A DNA stretch of 64,000 nucleotides from an uncultured Candidatus Saccharibacteria bacterium (GTDB lineage Bacteria; Patescibacteriota; Minisyncoccia; Phycocordibacterales; UBA9973), in assembly GCA_964634365.1 (NCBI GenBank), contig CAZWJU010000002.1, forward strand, positions 103,150 to 167,149. Reading direction: 5' to 3'. Shown one piece after another: positions 30,626 to 60,290 of this stretch. The position numbers and the translations under genes were made by a program. The notes beneath the pieces are model-generated. The model was given only the letters and a program-made list of their open reading frames with translations, had not been told where the DNA came from and did no database searches. Position 1 is the first letter of the stretch; each line of letters begins with the position of its first letter.

Positions 30626-30663
30626 AAGTCCTTAGACTATAACATGTAAACAACATAACAGTA

Positions 30664-31052
30664 AAAATCTACAACCCGCCTCTGGCGGGTTTTTTTCTAA
30701 TCATTACTTTTTCAAAAAAGTAATGCAAAAATTTCTTTGCGTATAACTCTGTGTATATTCACGAAACTCGGACTCACTAAAAGTATTAACTCGGCTACCA
30801 CCTCAAACAGAATACTTTTTCCTAACGGAACGTTCGTCCTCGTTTGTTCATATATACACAGAGTTATAAGGCAAAGCTAGGGCCCAAATACACCAATCCA
30901 TACTTTTAAAAAGTCTTGCGCAGCCGGGCAGGCGAGCAGAGCAAAAATCTAGCAAGATTTTATGCGTGCTTTTTAAAAGTTATGGATAAAAGAAAGTTTT
31001 CCGGAAACTAGGCTCTGAGTTACTGTAGACGTGATGTGGGTTACAAAAACAA
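30664..31052 (+). repeat. Copy A of a multi-copy structured non-coding element of about 390 nt. It starts with an A-run + cccgcc-tctg-gcggg hairpin. Strand uncertain.
   Basis: About 80-90% identical to 38181-38580 and 56392-56760. No ORF. Compensatory base changes between copies; see findings. Confidence 0.75.
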
Positions 31053-31083
31053 TAAAAAATCCCCAGAGGGGATTTTTTATTGT

Positions 31084-31389
31084 TTATCCTATTTGATTCA
31101 TTACTGACATACTTTCTCTTTGAAATTTTTCTGCTTCTTCTTTTGCAATATTTTCGAAATCAGAAACATTTTCTCGCAAGAATCCAATTATCATCTCAGG
31201 AGATGCGTCTTTGTCTAGCATCTCTTCAAATTCTGACTGGAGATTCTCTGGCATACCATCCATAACTCTCATCAATATCCCTTGAAATATTAGTGAGCCA
31301 ATCCGCTCAATAATATCATTTTGCTCGTCTTCTGAAAGGGAGCTGAGATTATATGCATTTATAATTGTTTGACGTAATTTTTGATCCAT
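31084..31389 (-). CDS. Small acidic hypothetical protein
   Basis: 101-aa ORF followed by a terminator hairpin at 31058-31083. Confidence 0.5.
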   Translation of the reverse strand: MDQKLRQTIINAYNLSSLSEDEQNDIIERIGSLIFQGILMRVMDGMPENLQSEFEEMLDKDASPEMIIGFLRENVSDFENIAKEEAEKFQRESMSVMNQIG

Positions 31390-38129: not shown

Positions 38130-38580
38130 TTCGAAAGAAAAAATCCCCTCCGGGGATTTTTTCTTTTATTTAAAATAAAAATCTACAACCCGCCTCTGGC
38201 GGGGTTCATTTTTTAATCATTACTTTTTTAAAAAAGTAATGCAAAAACTTCTTTGCATGTATGAAAAATCTAGCTCACAACACGATAGCTCGTTAAAAAT
38301 ATTAACTCGCCCCGCAGGCTCAAAGCGGGGCTCAAACAGAATATTTTTTACTCCGTAACACTCGCTCTCGTGTGTTCACTTACGATTTTTCATGCAAGGC
38401 AAAGCTAGGGTTCAAATACACCAATCCATACTTTTAAAAAGACTAGCGAGTGTGGCGACACGAGCTCGAGGAATTTTCTAGCAAGAAAATATCCGTGCTT
38501 TTTAAAAGTGATGGATAAAATAAAGTTTTCCGGAAACTAGACTCTGAGTTACTGTGGACGTGATATGGGTTACAAAAAAC
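38130..38580 (+). repeat. Copy B of the structured non-coding element. Includes a shared upstream terminator hairpin.
   Basis: ttcgaaagaaaaaatcccctccggggattttttc + atctacaacccgcctctggcgggg... Collinear with copies A and C. Confidence 0.75.
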
Positions 38581-38598
38581 AAAAACCCTTACGGGTTT

Positions 38599-39708
38599 CT
38601 ATTTCAAAGCTTTTATTCCAGGAAGCGTCCCTTTAGCCAAAAATTCTAAAGTAGCACCACCACCAGTAGAAACAAAAGTAAATTTATCTTCCATTTTCAT
38701 CTTGGACACAAGCGCAACCGTATCACCACCACCAATTATTGTCTTCGCTTTTGATTTAGCCAAGATTTTCAGTAGAGCAACAGTACCGTGATCGAAACCT
38801 GCTTCGTACTCTCCTGTCGGACCGTTCCATAGGACAAATTTTGATTTTTTTATTAGTATTTCAAACTCTCTTATTGTTCTATCTCCTATATCTACAATCT
38901 TATCCATCTTGCCCACCTCATCTATGCCTTTGGTTAGTCTTCCCCCGTCTTTACCAGTAACCACAACATCGACAGGTAACAGTAGTTTTGGATTGTTTAT
39001 TATTTTACTTATTCCATATTCTCCTTTTTCTACGAGAGATCTACCGACTTCAAAAGAAGCTTCTTTGAAAAAGTTGTTCATCAGCGCACCTGTAACCACT
39101 ACTCTATCTGCATCCTTTAGAAACTTTTTTATGAGAGGCATCTTTGTATCAAACTTTGCTCCACCTAAAATAAATAAAAATGGTCTTTTAGGTTTGTCTA
39201 GAACAATTGATAAGTTTTTAATTTCTTTTTCAAATTGAAATCCAACATATGATGGTAAGTATTTTGGAATCCCGACAATAGATGCGTGTTCTCTATGTGA
39301 AACCGGGAAGGCTTCATTTACATAAATATCAGCAAAACTAGCTAGATGTTTTGCAAATTTAGAATAATTTTCTTTTTCACCGATTTGTCGACGAATATTT
39401 TCTAGCAAAACAATTTCCCCTTTTTTTAGATCAATAGATTTTGGAACAGGTCCATCTATAAACCTAACTTTTATATGTTTATTTAAAAATTTTGCGACAG
39501 GTAAAAGTGTCTGTGCATCTTTTTGTAAATCAGAATGAGATACGAGTATTATCGAAGCTCCTTTTTTTTGTAGATACTGTATTGTAGGAAGTGCTTTTAA
39601 TATTCTAGTAGAATCTATTATTTTATCTCCTTCGATCGGAACATTAAAATCTGTTCTCAATAGAACTTTTTTACCTTTTAAATTTTTAATACTTTTTACT
39701 GATTTCAT
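38599..39708 (-). CDS. pgk: Phosphoglycerate kinase
   Basis: KGKKVLLRTDFNVP N-terminal motif, and the GGGA/GGGD C-terminal domain motifs. Confidence 0.85.
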   Translation of the reverse strand: MKSVKSIKNLKGKKVLLRTDFNVPIEGDKIIDSTRILKALPTIQYLQKKGASIILVSHSDLQKDAQTLLPVAKFLNKHIKVRFIDGPVPKSIDLKKGEIVLLENIRRQIGEKENYSKFAKHLASFADIYVNEAFPVSHREHASIVGIPKYLPSYVGFQFEKEIKNLSIVLDKPKRPFLFILGGAKFDTKMPLIKKFLKDADRVVVTGALMNNFFKEASFEVGRSLVEKGEYGISKIINNPKLLLPVDVVVTGKDGGRLTKGIDEVGKMDKIVDIGDRTIREFEILIKKSKFVLWNGPTGEYEAGFDHGTVALLKILAKSKAKTIIGGGDTVALVSKMKMEDKFTFVSTGGGATLEFLAKGTLPGIKALK

Positions 39709-56335: not shown

Positions 56336-56820
56336 TTCGAAAGAAAAAATCCCCTGGAGGGGATTTTTTCTTTTATTTTAAATAAAAATATACAACCCGC
56401 CTCTGGCGGGTTGTATTGTATTTTAAATATTACTTTTTCAAAAAAGTAATGCAAAAACTTCTTTGCATGTATCAAGAAAGACACTCACAAAACTCGGACT
56501 CACTAAAAGTATTAACTCGGCCACTACCTCAAACAGAATACTTTTTCCTGTCGGAACGTTCGTCCTTGTTTGTTCGTGTATATTTCTTGAAACAAGGCAA
56601 AGCTAGGGCCCAAATATAACCAATCCATACTTTTAAAAAGTCTTGCGCAAGGTCGACGGGCCGAGCAGAGCAATTCGCTAGCAAGCGAATATGCGTGCTT
56701 TTTAAAAGTTATGGATAAAATAAAGTTTTCCGGAAATTGGACTTTGGGTAGCCAATAAAAAAGATGAAGTTGTTTTGAAAAAGTAATGATTAAAAAAATG
56801 AACCCCGCCAGAGGCGAGTT
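56336..56820 (+). repeat. Copy C of the structured element. It carries terminal inverted repeats; the 3' end mirrors the 5' hairpin region.
   Basis: The 5' end cccgcctctggcggg...attactttttcaaaaaagtaat and the 3' end gaaaaagtaatgattaaaaaaatgaaccccgccagaggcg are mutually reverse-complementary. Confidence 0.75.
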
Positions 56821-56864
56821 ATTATTAACTATTCCCTTATCCCTTATCACTATTCCCTAAAATA

Positions 56865-56905
56865 AAAACCCCGTAGATTACTCTACGGGGCCGGGCTGGC
56901 AAAAG
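56865..56905 (-). terminator. Rho-independent terminator for the lipoprotein gene
   Basis: On the minus strand: ccccgtagagtaatctacgggg followed by tttttatttt. Confidence 0.6.
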
Positions 56906-57584: not shown

Positions 57585-57763
57585 ATTTATTGGTTTTATT
57601 GTGAATTCAATATAGAACTTTTACTCACGTAGTATAGCACATATACCCCCCATTTGTCAAGCCCTCCCGTACCCCCTATTTTTCTGTTATAATCTCAATA
57701 GTTTATAGGATTTCTTTGTATTTTTACTAAAACCTAACACCTATAACCTTAAACCTATCCAAT

Positions 57764-58348
57764 ATGTTAATCCCAACAGTCCTCGAAAAATCCCAATTTG
57801 GCGAACGCGCATACGATATTTACTCTCGCCTGCTAAAAGAGCGTATTATTTTCCTAAACGATGAGGTGAACGACTACACTGCAAACTTAGTTATTGCTCA
57901 GCTTATCTTCCTTGCTCACGAAGATCCAAAAAAAGATATTCAGCTATACATAAACTCTCCAGGAGGATCAGTTACAGCTGGTATGGCGATATATGACACA
58001 ATGCAATTCATAAAACCAGACGTTACTACTATATGTGTTGGTATGGCAGCATCTATGGGAGCAGTGCTTCTCGCTGGTGGTGCAAAAGGCAAACGTTTTG
58101 CTCTTCCAAACTCTCGCATGATGATCCACCAAGTACTCGGTGGCGCTGAAGGTCAGGCAAGTGACGTTGAGATTCGTACACGCGAACTATTACGTATGAA
58201 AAAAATGTTGAACGAACTTCTTGCAAAACACACAGGACAAAAACTAGCAAAAGTTGAAGCCGACGCTGACCGAGACTATTTTATGACAGCCGACGAAGCA
58301 AAAAAATACGGTCTTATAGATGAAGTAATCACAAAAGCTAAGATATAA
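57764..58348 (+). CDS. clpP: ATP-dependent Clp protease proteolytic subunit
   Basis: [27 protein letters not shown] Ser site, and MIHQ His. Confidence 0.9.
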
Positions 58349-58365
58349 ATACAATATCAAAATAA

Positions 58366-58392
58366 AAAACCCGCCTAGCGGGTTTTTTATTT
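58366..58392 (+). terminator. Rho-independent terminator after clpP
   Basis: aaaaaacccgcc-tagc-gggttttttat. Confidence 0.65.
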
Positions 58393-58410
58393 AATTGGTG
58401 TATTTAGAAT

Positions 58411-58620
58411 CCTTGGAGCCTAACTTTGCCTTGTAGATTTACATATCTAGACGAACGCAAATAGTGTTTCAAAAGACTCTGTGTAGTGCGACGGCGCGAA
58501 ACAAAGAAAATTTATAGCAGTAAATTTTCGTGTCTTTTGAAACACTATTAAGTGAGTTGTTTTTTGAAAAAGTAATAGTTAAACAAGTAAAGAAAAATTC
58601 CGCTTTGCGGAATTTTTCTT
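58411..58620 (+). repeat. Partial, diverged copy D of the structured element. It holds the conserved three-way-junction core plus a 3' hairpin.
   Basis: tagtgtttcaaaagact...aaaatttaTAGCAGtaaatttt...gtcttttgaaacacta aligns with the core of copies A-C, with compensatory changes. Confidence 0.6.
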
Positions 58621-58763
58621 TGAATTTTTAATACATAAACTACCGAGCGTATTCTATTACTCTCGCCTCTCGAATCAAGGTTACCCCGGTACGAAAATTG
58701 CACAGCGAATGCCTGTGCAATTTCATACGGGGCGAGACGTGGTAAATTTATTTTTTGTGATTT

Positions 58764-60290
58764 CTATCTTGCATACTCAATTACCCGAGTTTCTCTAATC
58801 AGGGTGACTTTTATTTCACCTGGATATTTCAATTCAGACTCTATTTTCTTTGCTATCTCACGAGCCATCTCTTTTGCTTCTACATCACCGACTTTTTCAG
58901 GAGTTACAAAAAGTCGTATCTCGCGACCAGCTTGGAGTGCATAAGATTTTTCTACACCTTCAAACTGATTTACAAGAGCTTCAAGTTCTGCAAGTCTGCG
59001 CAAGTAGTTTTCGACACTATCACGTCTTGCACCAGGTCTTCCGCCAGATATATAGTCTGCTGTTTGTACTATCACAGCTTCTAGTGTTTCGTGTGGGCAG
59101 TCATCGTGGTGAGATTTCATAGCTTGTATAACGCGTGGATCAGCACCAAATTTCTGCAAGATTCTGATACCGATATCTATGTGTGTACCTTGAACCTCAT
59201 GGTCTAGGGCCTTACCTATATCATGTACAAGCGCACCAGCTTTTGCTATCTGCACATCTGCACCGAGCTCTTCGGCTATCATGCCCGCGATGTGAGTCAT
59301 CTCAATTGAGTGTTGAAGTACGTTTTGTCCATAACTTGTTCGGAAATATAGACGTCCGATTATGGCTACTATACGAGGATCGAAGTTGAATATTCCACAT
59401 TCGTACACTGCTTGCTCACCCTTCTCTTTGATAATTTTATTTATATCTTCTTTTGCCTTATCTACCATTTCTTCGATCTTTGCAGGTTGGATACGTCCAT
59501 CGAGGATTAGGTTCTCAAGTGCAAGTCTTGCTATCTGTCTCCTAACTGGATCAAAACTAGATATTACAATAGTTCCAGGTGTGTCATCTACGATTAGCTC
59601 TACTCCGGCTGCACGCTCAAACGCTCTGATGTTTCGTCCTTCCTTTCCAATTATCTTTCCTTTGATTTCATCGTTTGGAATAGAAACGTTTGTCGCCATC
59701 AGTTCAGCTGCAGTAGAAGATGCTAGTCTTTGGATTGATGTTGCGAGTATTTCTTTTGCGCGTCCATCGAGTTTCTCCTGACCTGATTGTTCGAGCTTCT
59801 GGATTCTAACAAGTAAATCTTCTTCATAATCTTTTTCGATAGTAGTCATGAGCTCTGCTTTTGCATCTTCGCGAGTTAGTCCGGCTACACGCTCAAGCTC
59901 TTTGTGTTTTGTTTCTTCTAGCTCAACTGTTTTTTCTTTGATTTTTTTGATCTCTTCAACTTTGAGTTTTATATTCTCAACCTCTTTGTCTATTTCGGTT
60001 TGGCGAGCATCTAAAAGCTCCTCTTTTTTGATAAGGCGCTTTTCAGTTTCTTTGAACTCTATTTCGCGATTTTTCTCTTCCCTTTTTAGTTCTTCGTCAC
60101 GCTCCTCAGCTTTCTTTTTTGCTTCGTCTATTATTCTTTGCGCTTCCTCTTTTGCAGAGATCAATATCTTTTTGATCTCAAGCTCCATTGAACCCTTTTG
60201 TCCGAGGGCTATGATTAGTCGGAGATAATATCCGACTGCAACACCTACGACTAGTGCTAGTCCTAGGAATGCCAATAAATGTAAATTCAT
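58764..60290 (-). CDS. rny: Ribonuclease Y
   Basis: N-terminal TM, coiled coil, KH domain (GKIIGKEGRNIRAFE) and HD domain (HSIEMTHIAG...LVHDIGK). Confidence 0.9.
   Translation of the reverse strand: MNLHLLAFLGLALVVGVAVGYYLRLIIALGQKGSMELEIKKILISAKEEAQRIIDEAKKKAEERDEELKREEKNREIEFKETEKRLIKKEELLDARQTEIDKEVENIKLKVEEIKKIKEKTVELEETKHKELERVAGLTREDAKAELMTTIEKDYEEDLLVRIQKLEQSGQEKLDGRAKEILATSIQRLASSTAAELMATNVSIPNDEIKGKIIGKEGRNIRAFERAAGVELIVDDTPGTIVISSFDPVRRQIARLALENLILDGRIQPAKIEEMVDKAKEDINKIIKEKGEQAVYECGIFNFDPRIVAIIGRLYFRTSYGQNVLQHSIEMTHIAGMIAEELGADVQIAKAGALVHDIGKALDHEVQGTHIDIGIRILQKFGADPRVIQAMKSHHDDCPHETLEAVIVQTADYISGGRPGARRDSVENYLRRLAELEALVNQFEGVEKSYALQAGREIRLFVTPEKVGDVEAKEMAREIAKKIESELKYPGEIKVTLIRETRVIEYAR

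What the first reader, a model, noticed from the sequence alone, without database searches (positions are those of the whole stretch)
58411..58620. Partial element copy D between clpP and rny keeps only the three-way-junction core
Region 58445-58555 aligns with the about 90-nt core of copies A-C: an outer helix, a first inner segment, a TAGCA(A/G)-loop hairpin, and the closing helix. It is then followed by gttttttgaaaaagtaat + a hairpin, as at the 3' end of copy C.

The upstream 200 nt of the full element is missing. An inverted fragment resembling the ggcaaagctaggg block is present at about 58415-58440.

Core retention in a degraded copy suggests the core is the functional, selected part. A long perfect hairpin sits nearby at 58691-58738 (ccccggtacgaaaattgcacag...ctgtgcaatttcatacgggg).
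Basis: seen in the sequence. Interest (0 to 1): 0.55.

Follow-up and report, generated by a model that had tools for sequence, protein, structure and literature searches.

The report
Stand-alone three-way-junction RNA repeat unit
The stretch between clpP and rny holds an intact extra member of an undescribed family of small folded RNA repeats in Patescibacteria, but it is a separate lineage set in a different frame, not a worn-down copy of the three large repeats.

Summary
A covariance model of the ~90-nt core, built without D, hits window 58460-58549 (+) over its full length at 52 bits (E 3.5e-11). The next non-self hit scores 18 bits. Further cores occur in other Patescibacteria and in metagenome contigs. 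Across seven cores, 97.9% of cells pair and 30 of 34 pairs show compensatory changes.

The "decayed copy" reading is only partly right:
- D's core interior is closer to cores from other genomes (65-69%) than to A-C (54-57%).
- The 64 nt to its left are the reverse complement of the A-C junction block plus the tail of the other domain.
- Its right flank and terminator match the end of that other domain.

A-C are composites of two modules that appear to be read from opposite strands. One is the core. The other is a long hairpin ("X") capped by AUUCUGUUUGAG-hairpin-CGAGUUAAU. X also occurs in Bacteroidota and Ignavibacteria, sometimes in ~370-nt tandem arrays. In D the core sits where X's cap should be, on the same strand.

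Copy C is absent from a sister strain. Nothing matches Rfam 15. The function is unknown. My best guess is an RNA fold carried by a dispersed, probably mobile, non-coding repeat.

The parts
58360..58392 (+). clpP terminator hairpin (AAAAAACCCGCCTAGCGGGTTTTTT); the D unit starts right after it
   Evidence: Read directly from the sequence; clpP identified by Pfam CLP_protease.
58396..58459 (+). Reverse complement of the A-C junction block (J) plus the tail of domain 1. Read on the + strand it is the 5' leader of an X-type unit: AUUGGUGUAUUU...CUUUGCC...GACGAACGC.
   Evidence: nhmmer profile of A, B, C, L005 and L025 (no D) hits 58459-58404 (-) at E 3.8e-5, the only non-self hit. Alignment A5 shows a J variant shared with L005/L025 (CAAGGATTCT).
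58460..58549 (+). Core three-way junction. Outer helix 58460-58477 / 58532-58549 (18 bp). Hairpin 1 at 58479-58503, with tip UGCG-ACGG-CGCG. Hairpin 2 at 58506-58529, with loop U-AGCA-G. Junction CGUG at 58529-58532.
   Evidence: CM R1 without D: 52.1 bits, E 3.5e-11. CM R2: 75.4 bits. The + strand folds 6.5 kcal/mol better than the - strand. Covariation statistics.
58550..58575 (+). AAGTGAGTTG + TTTTTTGAAAAAGTAAT: the basal 3' flank (AGUGAGU) and half of the ATTACTTTTT/AAAAAGTAAT palindrome that ends X units. It matches the right end of copy C (56762-56790).
   Evidence: blastn and the repeat finder families D8 and D17; alignment A5.
58588..58622 (.). Bidirectional intrinsic-terminator-like hairpin (AAAGAAAAATTCCGCTTTGCGGAATTTTTCTTT). 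The same hairpin follows rny in relative L005.
   Evidence: Terminator scan, both strands; L005 sequence.
58640..58684 (-). In-frame relic of the last 15 codons of rny (VTLIREARVIEYAR*)
   Evidence: blastn to the rny 3' ends of seven relatives; translation; alignment A10.
58691..58738 (.). Imperfect long hairpin between the real rny stop codon and the rny relic; no other copy in the window
   Evidence: Folding of both strands and blastn.
30896..30987 (+). Core of copy A (whole composite about 30662-31085)
   Evidence: CM R1, 103 bits.
38424..38516 (+). Core of copy B (whole composite about 38176-38600)
   Evidence: CM R1, 108 bits.
56623..56716 (+). Core of copy C (whole composite 56389-56859, absent from sister strain L002)
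   Evidence: CM R1, 105 bits; empty site in L002.

Best explanation
**What is shown.** Window 58396-58622 (+) is a self-contained ~225-nt unit of a dispersed, non-coding, structured-RNA repeat family of Patescibacteria.

Its centre (58460-58549) is an intact ~90-nt three-way-junction 'core'. This motif also occurs once in each of the composite repeats A-C and in other Patescibacteria.

Around the core lies the frame of a second module, the X hairpin:
- a leader with the J block;
- basal flanks GACGAACG / AGUGAGU;
- half of the terminal palindrome;
- an intrinsic terminator.

D's core is of a different lineage from the A-C cores, so D is not a decayed A-C copy.

**What is inferred from strand asymmetry.** In A-C, X and core appear to be read from opposite strands, head to head. 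In D both lie on the + strand, and the core occupies the place of X's conserved apical motif.

**What is inferred about function.** The unit is transcribed on the + strand, either by read-through past the clpP terminator or from an unrecognised promoter. It ends at the 58588-58622 terminator.

The conserved junction nucleotides and the UAGCA(A/G) loop are probably a binding surface for a trans-acting partner. This fold would be what selection maintains while the units spread or are reshuffled as repeats.

The biological role (selfish propagation, small-RNA regulation or protein binding) is not determined.
For: **Homology of the core**
- CM built without D scores 52 bits, E 3.5e-11, over the full model length. 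Noise is 18 bits or less.

**Real structure**
- Seven cores: 97.9% of cells paired and 30 of 34 pairs with changes on both sides. None of 500 shuffles reached this. Slid controls give 41-57% paired.

**Independent occurrences of the core**
- L013 (Nomurabacteria), L025/L075 (Paceibacterota), L079, and weaker or partial CM hits in L078 (three places), L080 and L081.

**Separate lineage**
- D's interior is 65-69% identical to L013 and L079, against 54-57% to A-C.

**X-frame around D**
- nhmmer gives E 3.8e-5 for the inverted J block plus tail.
- D lines up with L005, where a full X unit sits after the same terminator hairpin downstream of rny.

**Strand**
- X folds better on the strand opposite to the search-pattern orientation in 44 of 53 loci (p 8e-9, apical motif masked out).
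- The core folds better on + in 5 of 5 cases. In my count on the alignment, the + orientation has 8 G-U pairs against 2 A-C.
- D (+) folds at -69.4 kcal/mol against -60.6 for (-).

**Repeat behaviour**
- Copy C is absent from sister strain L002, with AAATAAAAA at both junctions.
- Relatives carry elements downstream of rny in either orientation.
- Four cores lie in 64 kb.

**Not a known family, no partner gene**
- No Rfam 15 match.
- No recurring neighbouring ORF.
- Pfam finds nothing informative in nearby unknown proteins.
Against: - There are no expression data, so the strand assignment rests on G-U asymmetry and folding energies alone. For the core that means only 5-7 related sequences.
- No promoter was recognised. 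The sigma-70-like sites near D are no more frequent than in shuffled sequence, and none lies in the J region of A or B.
- D departs from the family at some conserved unpaired positions (GAG to AAG; AUAUCC to UUC). It is also the lowest-scoring full-length core, so it could be a non-functional relic.
- D lies at a rearrangement junction. Relatives have clpP and rny on the same strand, so its mosaic make-up could be a recombination scar.
- The similarity between X's apical motif and hairpin 1 of the core is by eye only. The core CM does not hit X units.
- 'Insertion' of copy C cannot be told apart from deletion between two short A-rich repeats.
Confidence: 0.55

Rival explanations
1. Rearrangement scar. 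D is a non-functional mosaic made when repeat copies recombined during the event that turned rny round relative to clpP. The core is homologous but is simply what was left.
For: - Relatives L004, L074, L075 and L077 have clpP then rny on the same strand. The window has them convergent, with D exactly between them.
- A relic of the rny 3' end lies next to D.
- J is inverted relative to the core.
- D is the lowest-scoring full-length core.
Against: - All four helices are intact, including a perfect 18-bp outer helix. Relative to A-C they carry compensatory rather than disruptive changes.
- D's core is not of the A-C or L005 type, so it cannot come from the neighbouring copy that the positional orthologue in L005 carries.
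- No single inversion or homologous crossover between A-C-type copies gives the observed order (my reasoning from the block order).
Confidence: 0.22
2. D is a decayed partial copy of an A-C-type element, in which only the core was kept by selection.
For: The core is intact and significant. The right flank resembles the 3' end of copy C. The X apical motif and the variable stem are absent.
Against: - Interior identity to A-C is 54-57%, lower than to cores from other genomes, and the outer helix has a different sequence.
- The left flank is an inverted J block plus dom1 tail, not a truncation.
- A-C differ from one another by compensatory changes, not by decay.
Confidence: 0.1
3. DNA-level element. 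The hairpins act in DNA or single-stranded DNA, for example as recombination or transposition ends or as single-strand initiation signals, rather than as RNA.
For: - Copy C shows presence/absence polymorphism with a 9-bp direct repeat.
- Copy C has ~50-nt inverted terminal modules.
- The outer helix is 97-100% identical among A, B, C and L025 while the interior is only 56-75% identical, as if a sequence-specific site were being kept.
- The two modules prefer opposite strands.
- The loop TAGCA(A/G) recalls the CS-6 loop (TAGCGT) of ssoA origins. This is from memory and was not tested.
Against: - The G-U asymmetry is strand-specific for each module, and junction nucleotides are conserved across distant lineages with GC from 34 to 58%.
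- No transposase, Rep or integrase recurs nearby.
- No similarity to plasmids or phages was found.
Confidence: 0.1
4. Chance resemblance: an unrelated AT-rich hairpin that merely looks like the core.
For: Sequence-only nhmmer gives just E 0.07-0.08 for the core region.
Against: The CM E-value is 3.5e-11, with every helix and the CGUG, AGCA and CGA positions aligned. Flanks on both sides are also related to the element.
Confidence: 0.01

Closest known systems
Structured non-coding dispersed repeats / MITE-like elements of bacteria (Neisseria Correia elements, enterobacterial ERIC, pneumococcal BOX/RUP, REP/BIME); compared from general knowledge
   Same: Multi-copy and intergenic, often next to terminators between convergent genes. 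No ORF. They fold into long hairpins. Presence or absence varies between strains (copy C versus L002).
   Different: Here the fold is conserved with compensatory changes and fixed junction nucleotides across distant lineages, and for X across phyla. No clean terminal inverted repeats or target duplication were seen except possibly in C. The element is a composite of two modules that prefer opposite strands.
HEARO / IscB omega-RNA and its ORF-less copies (Rfam RF02033)
   Same: A large, multi-copy, highly structured RNA tied to a mobile element and often found without its ORF.
   Different: No Rfam HEARO hit at the gathering threshold or in the E-value scans of copies A, C and D. No IscB/TnpB-like ORF nearby. 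No variable guide-like segment: the unit ends are conserved between copies.
Group IIC introns (they insert after intrinsic terminators)
   Same: A, B and C, and the copies in L002 and L025, each lie directly after the terminator of an upstream gene. The composite's size (~400 nt) is close to that of an ORF-less IIC intron.
   Different: No domain V/VI or group II match in Rfam, no GUGYG...AY ends, and both orientations occur relative to the upstream gene (L005 versus L025).
Ribosomal protein S15 (rpsO) leader three-way junctions
   Same: The core is a three-way junction, and in L013 it lies ~100 nt upstream of rpsO.
   Different: This is a single case. None of the four window cores, nor L078-L081, is next to rpsO. 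No Rfam S15-leader match.
ssoA-type single-strand origins of rolling-circle plasmids (conserved loop CS-6, TAGCGT); recalled from memory
   Same: A strongly folded, orientation-dependent non-coding unit with a conserved TAGC-containing hairpin loop.
   Different: Chromosomal and multi-copy, with no Rep gene and no similarity to the plasmid or phage collections. The loop sequence differs (TAGCAA/G).

Membership tests
   R1 gives 52.1 bits, E 3.5e-11, model 1-92, at 58460-58549 (+). The next non-self hit scores 18 bits.
   Alignment A8: 97.9% of cells paired, 30 of 34 pairs with double changes, 0 of 500 shuffles as high. In my read-out of the aligned rows, every D pair is canonical except one gapped cell.
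   D keeps CGA, UAGCAG and CGUG. It has AAG in place of GAG and UUC in place of AUAUCC (alignment rows).
Full composite repeat of the A-C type | X apical motif ATTAACTCG-N-CTCAAACAGAAT with its flanking helix | tested here: not met
   In the window the motif was found only in A, B and C (regex). In D its place is taken by the core.
Full composite repeat of the A-C type | J block immediately 5' of the core, in the same orientation | tested here: not met
   The J block is present at 58396-58437 but as the reverse complement.
Full composite repeat of the A-C type | GTTTTCCGGAAAC hairpin and closing helix CTAGGGCC/GGCTCTGAG 3' of the core | tested here: not met
   Absent from 58550-58625.
Any Rfam 15 family | Score at or above the family's gathering threshold | tested here: not met
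   No hits in the window at gathering. In E-value mode, only terminator-like sub-threshold matches over C, D and A. Nothing on related loci beyond tRNA and Flavo-1 nearby.
MITE (non-autonomous DNA transposon) | Terminal inverted repeats plus a target-site duplication | tested here: inconclusive
   Copy C has AAATAAAAA at both junctions relative to the empty site in L002, and ~50-nt inverted modules, but the right-hand module is 40 nt from the end. A, B and D show neither feature clearly.
HEARO / IscB-TnpB omega-RNA | Rfam HEARO match, or an adjacent IscB/TnpB gene | tested here: not met
   No Rfam hit. Pfam on the neighbours shows UvrD, DUF5663, M23/LysM, PGK, trigger factor, ClpP and RNase Y. 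No recurring ORF near 68 related loci.
Group II intron (class C) | Domain V/VI signature (Rfam Intron_gpII, group-II-D1D4) | tested here: not met
   No such hit overlaps any copy.
S15 (rpsO) leader | Location in the 5' UTR of rpsO | tested here: not met
   True only for L013. The window cores lie between uvrD-like and DUF5663, M23 and pgk, tig and a hypothetical gene, and clpP and rny.
ssoA single-strand origin | Plasmid or phage context with a Rep gene, plus RSB and the CS-6 loop | tested here: not met
   Chromosomal housekeeping context. No blastn match in the plasmid or phage collections for related units. RSB was not examined.

The most novel reading that the evidence does not exclude
The four cores and the X hairpins belong to two undescribed, related families of dispersed structured RNAs. 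X is shared by Patescibacteria, Bacteroidota, Ignavibacteria and some other phyla, at times in ~370-nt tandem arrays. The core is specific to Patescibacteria. On this reading they would be the RNA parts of a new kind of ORF-less mobile or self-propagating element, or of a widespread ribonucleoprotein. D would then be a natural hybrid showing that the core can replace X's apical domain, which makes the two modules functional equivalents.
Probability: 0.3. Interest if true: 0.8.

Novelty: new variant of a known kind. Interest (0 to 1): 0.6.

Why it matters
Patescibacteria have tiny genomes, yet this 64-kb window spends about 1.6 kb on four copies of a fold that selection clearly maintains. The fold has no Rfam family.

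The companion X motif links these bacteria to Bacteroidota and Ignavibacteria, where it forms tandem arrays.

If these are RNAs with a common partner, they define a new widespread ribonucleoprotein or mobile-RNA system. D would be the natural domain-swap that shows which parts are interchangeable.

If they are only repeats, they still explain contig breaks and local rearrangements in assemblies of this lineage.

Tried and rejected
- **First database patterns.** Patterns built on the J block plus the TAGCAAG loop or the CCGGAAA hairpin found nothing in GTDB genomes, IMG/VR or JGI metagenomes. These blocks are specific to this lineage.
- **'D is only a minus-strand 5' half.'** I held this view after nhmmer favoured the minus strand (E 2e-5 against 0.07 for the core). 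I dropped it as the whole story when the structure-aware model gave E 3.5e-11 on the plus strand. Both signals are real and refer to different parts of D.
- **Partner proteins.** All-against-all comparison of ORFs within 1.5 kb of 68 related loci found no recurring family. Pfam on the large unknown ORFs of the window gave nothing.
- **Known RNA families.** Rfam at gathering and E-value thresholds on the window and related loci gave only tRNA, Flavo-1 nearby, and terminator-like noise.
- **Cas9 resemblance.** X's GUUUGAG...CGAGUUAA...AGUCCG looks like the Cas9 repeat:anti-repeat/nexus region. I kept this only as a by-eye lead, because there is no variable guide segment and no cas gene.
- **K-turn or sarcin-ricin reading of the X loop.** It did not fit by hand.
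- **Simple inversion or crossover models** for how D arose from an A-C/L005-type copy. None reproduces the block order.
- **Literature searches** found no description of these motifs.
- **Plasmid and phage collections** gave no match.
- **Global MAFFT/RNAalifold on 66 X units** failed outside the apical helix. Only the apical helix is claimed as covarying.

Full report
**Setting.** The finding lies in the 415-nt spacer between clpP (57764-58348, +) and rny (58764-60290, -). Names attached to rny homologues place the organism in Patescibacteria/Paceibacterota. The window has no tRNA and no Rfam hit at gathering thresholds.

**The full copies.** Three ~400-470-nt non-coding repeats exist:
- A, ~30662-31085, between a UvrD-like gene and a DUF5663 gene;
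- B, ~38176-38600, between an M23/LysM peptidase gene and pgk;
- C, 56389-56859, between tig and a hypothetical gene.

They are ~80% identical. The differences cluster in helices as compensatory changes: 30 of 108 predicted pairs change on both sides among only three sequences.

In + strand order each copy has:
- a GC hairpin (CCCGCCTCTGGCGGG);
- the palindrome ATTACTTTTTCAAAAAAGTAAT;
- domain 1, a long irregular hairpin;
- the junction block AAGGCAAAGCTAGGG..CAAATACACCAAT (J);

**Is D's core real?** Yes. Model R1 was built from the cores of A, B, C and a Paceibacterota MAG (L025), without D. Run over the whole window with filters off, it gave 103-108 bits for A-C and then D at 58460-58549 (+), with 52.1 bits, E 3.5e-11 and full model coverage. 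D's reverse strand scored 16.8 bits and the best unrelated site 18 bits. Sequence-only methods had given just E 0.07-0.08 for this stretch, so the signal is mainly structural.

D keeps these features:
- an 18-bp outer helix (58460-77 / 58532-49);
- hairpin 1 with a GC tip;
- an AU-rich hairpin 2 with loop U-AGCA-G;
- the CGUG junction.

**Is the core a family?** R1 also found cores in L013 (Nomurabacteria MAG, 63 bits) and in L025/L075. A metagenome scan with a D/L013-type pattern returned four contigs. L079 carries a full-length core (72 bits). L078 (three places), L080 and L081 carry weaker or partial CM hits (15.7-33 bits).

On the seven full-length cores, 97.9% of cells pair and 30 of 34 pairs change on both sides. 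None of 500 shuffles reached this, and slid controls give 41-57% paired. Model R2, built from these seven sequences, finds exactly four cores in the window. It finds none in the Bacteroidota or Ignavibacteria loci.

**Is D a decayed A-C copy?** No, for three reasons.

(i) D's core interior is 54-57% identical to A-C but 69% to L079 and 65% to L013. Its outer helix has a different sequence.

(ii) The 64 nt to the left of the core (58396-58459) are the reverse complement of the dom1 tail plus J. A profile without D gives E 3.8e-5, the only non-self hit. This J variant carries CAAGGATTCT, as in relatives L005 and L025.

(iii) To the right come AAGTGAGT, half of the palindrome (TTTTTTGAAAAAGTAAT) and a terminator hairpin at 58588-58622. 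In L005 (rny 96% identical) the same hairpin follows rny and is followed by a complete domain 1 and J.

So D has the two ends and basal flanks of the domain-1 module, with a core where that module's apex should be.

**The second module (X).** The most conserved part of domain 1 is its apex, ATTAACTCG-(hairpin)-CTCAAACAGAAT. Scanning GTDB genomes with this pattern gave 68 loci:
- Ignavibacteria;
- Bacteroidota, including several Flavobacterium species (five F. caeni contigs) and Myroides;
- several Patescibacteria;
- some Deltaproteobacteria.

In 70 of 86 matches, counting the window's own copies, a helix flanks the motif. Two contigs, L038 and L058, carry tandem arrays with a ~370-nt period. 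The apical helix covaries: six pairs show 4-11 double changes among 26 sequences, and none is broken.

No neighbouring ORF recurs, and there is no Rfam match.

**Strands.** With the motif masked, X folds better on the strand opposite to the pattern orientation in 44 of 53 loci (p 8e-9). The RNA would then read AUUCUGUUUGAG...CGAGUUAAU.

The core folds better on the window's + strand in all five cases tested. In my count on the alignment, the + orientation has 8 G-U pairs against 2 A-C.

If these asymmetries reflect RNA, then in A-C:
- X is a - strand unit ending at the left hairpin, which is terminator-like on the - strand;
- domain 2 with the core is a + strand unit ending at the right terminator.

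The two units would lie head to head. In D, both the X-frame and the core are + sense. D (+) folds at -69.4 kcal/mol against -60.6 for (-). This part is inference, as no expression data exist.

**Repeat and mobile behaviour.** Sister strain L002 has a ClpP protein identical to the window's, yet lacks copy C. The sequence AAATAAAAA occurs once at its empty site and at both junctions of C in the window.

Downstream of rny, relatives carry elements in either orientation (L005 versus L002, L025 and L075). An 86%-identical relative (L004) has none.

Relatives have clpP and rny on the same strand. In the window rny is inverted, so D sits at a rearrangement junction.

Logan contigs from two samples end at 58441 and 58546, on either side of the core. 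This remains unexplained. It could reflect further copies, variation, or a loss of coverage at the hairpin.

**What it most likely is.** D is a self-contained unit (~58396-58622, +) of a family of dispersed, non-coding, folded repeats. Homology, structure and separate lineage are shown. Transcription, strand and function are inferred.

I consider an RNA fold kept for binding a trans-acting partner, carried on repeat units that move or recombine, the best-supported reading (confidence about 0.55 for the whole statement). A pure recombination scar is the main rival (0.22).

**Comparison with known systems.** The closest in behaviour are structured dispersed repeats such as Correia, ERIC, BOX and REP. 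This family differs in its deep structural conservation and its two-module build.

Four known systems were considered and failed their defining tests: HEARO/omega-RNA, group IIC introns, S15 leaders and ssoA origins (see the membership table). The resemblance of the TAGCA(A/G) loop to the CS-6 loop of ssoA origins is from memory only.

**Verdict.** The family appears to be undescribed, at least in Rfam 15 and in the literature I could search. D is most interesting as a natural hybrid of the two modules.

Noticed in passing
window 58640-58684 (-), with 58691-58738: An in-frame relic of the last 15 codons of rny (VTLIREARVIEYAR*) lies ~80 nt downstream of the real rny stop codon (real end VTLIRETRVIEYAR*). 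Its nucleotides are closer to relatives' rny ends (78-80%) than to the window's own (69%). The imperfect long hairpin sits between the two ends. This looks like a small insertion or replacement at the 3' end of rny.
   Followed up: partly
L006-L073; window 30785-30813, 38301-38342, 56511-56539: The X apical motif (RNA sense AUUCUGUUUGAG-hairpin-CGAGUUAAU, on a covarying helix) occurs in 68 GTDB loci from Ignavibacteria, Bacteroidota, Patescibacteria and other phyla. It is often multi-copy per genome, has no Rfam family and has no recurring neighbouring gene. Repeated GUUAA(G)/UAGC bulges flank its helices.
   Followed up: partly
L038 1650-3400 and 6650-8000; L058 1-2400: Tandem arrays of X-containing units with a period of about 350-450 nt (not multiples of 3), in a Bacteroidetes MAG and an Ignavibacteria MAG. 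About 230-270 nt of each unit is conserved and the rest is variable.
   Followed up: partly
window 56380-56388 and 56860-56868; L002 690-800: Copy C (about 471 nt) is absent from a sister strain whose ClpP is identical. AAATAAAAA occurs at both junctions in the window and once at the empty site. The right end of C carries an inverted copy of the left-end hairpin and palindrome.
   Followed up: yes
L013 1120-1211 (-): In a Nomurabacteria MAG a core lies about 100 nt upstream of the ribosomal protein S15 gene (rpsO). An X unit lies ~300 nt away on the same strand, next to a tyrosine recombinase gene. This is a single case.
   Followed up: no
window 58441/58442 and 58545/58546 (ends of Logan contigs L003 and L001): Independent assemblies of the same strain, from two samples, stop on either side of the D core. 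L003 also starts inside copy C. This suggests further copies or population variation at D.
   Followed up: no
window 30896-30987, 38424-38516, 56623-56716; L025 2718-2811: The 18-bp outer helix of the core is 97-100% identical among A, B, C and L025, while the interior is only 56-75% identical with compensatory changes. This is an odd split between a frozen stem and a fast-changing interior.
   Followed up: no
L017 653-731 and 2358-2435: In Flavobacterium caeni two Flavo-1 RNAs (Rfam RF01705) lie in the same neighbourhood as an X unit, ~550-1100 nt to either side.
   Followed up: no
window 57585-58763 compared with L002, L004, L074, L075, L077: Gene order around clpP and rny differs between close relatives. 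clpP and rny are co-directional in four relatives. L002 has an extra 147-aa gene between them. In the window rny is inverted and preceded by small unknown ORFs.
   Followed up: partly
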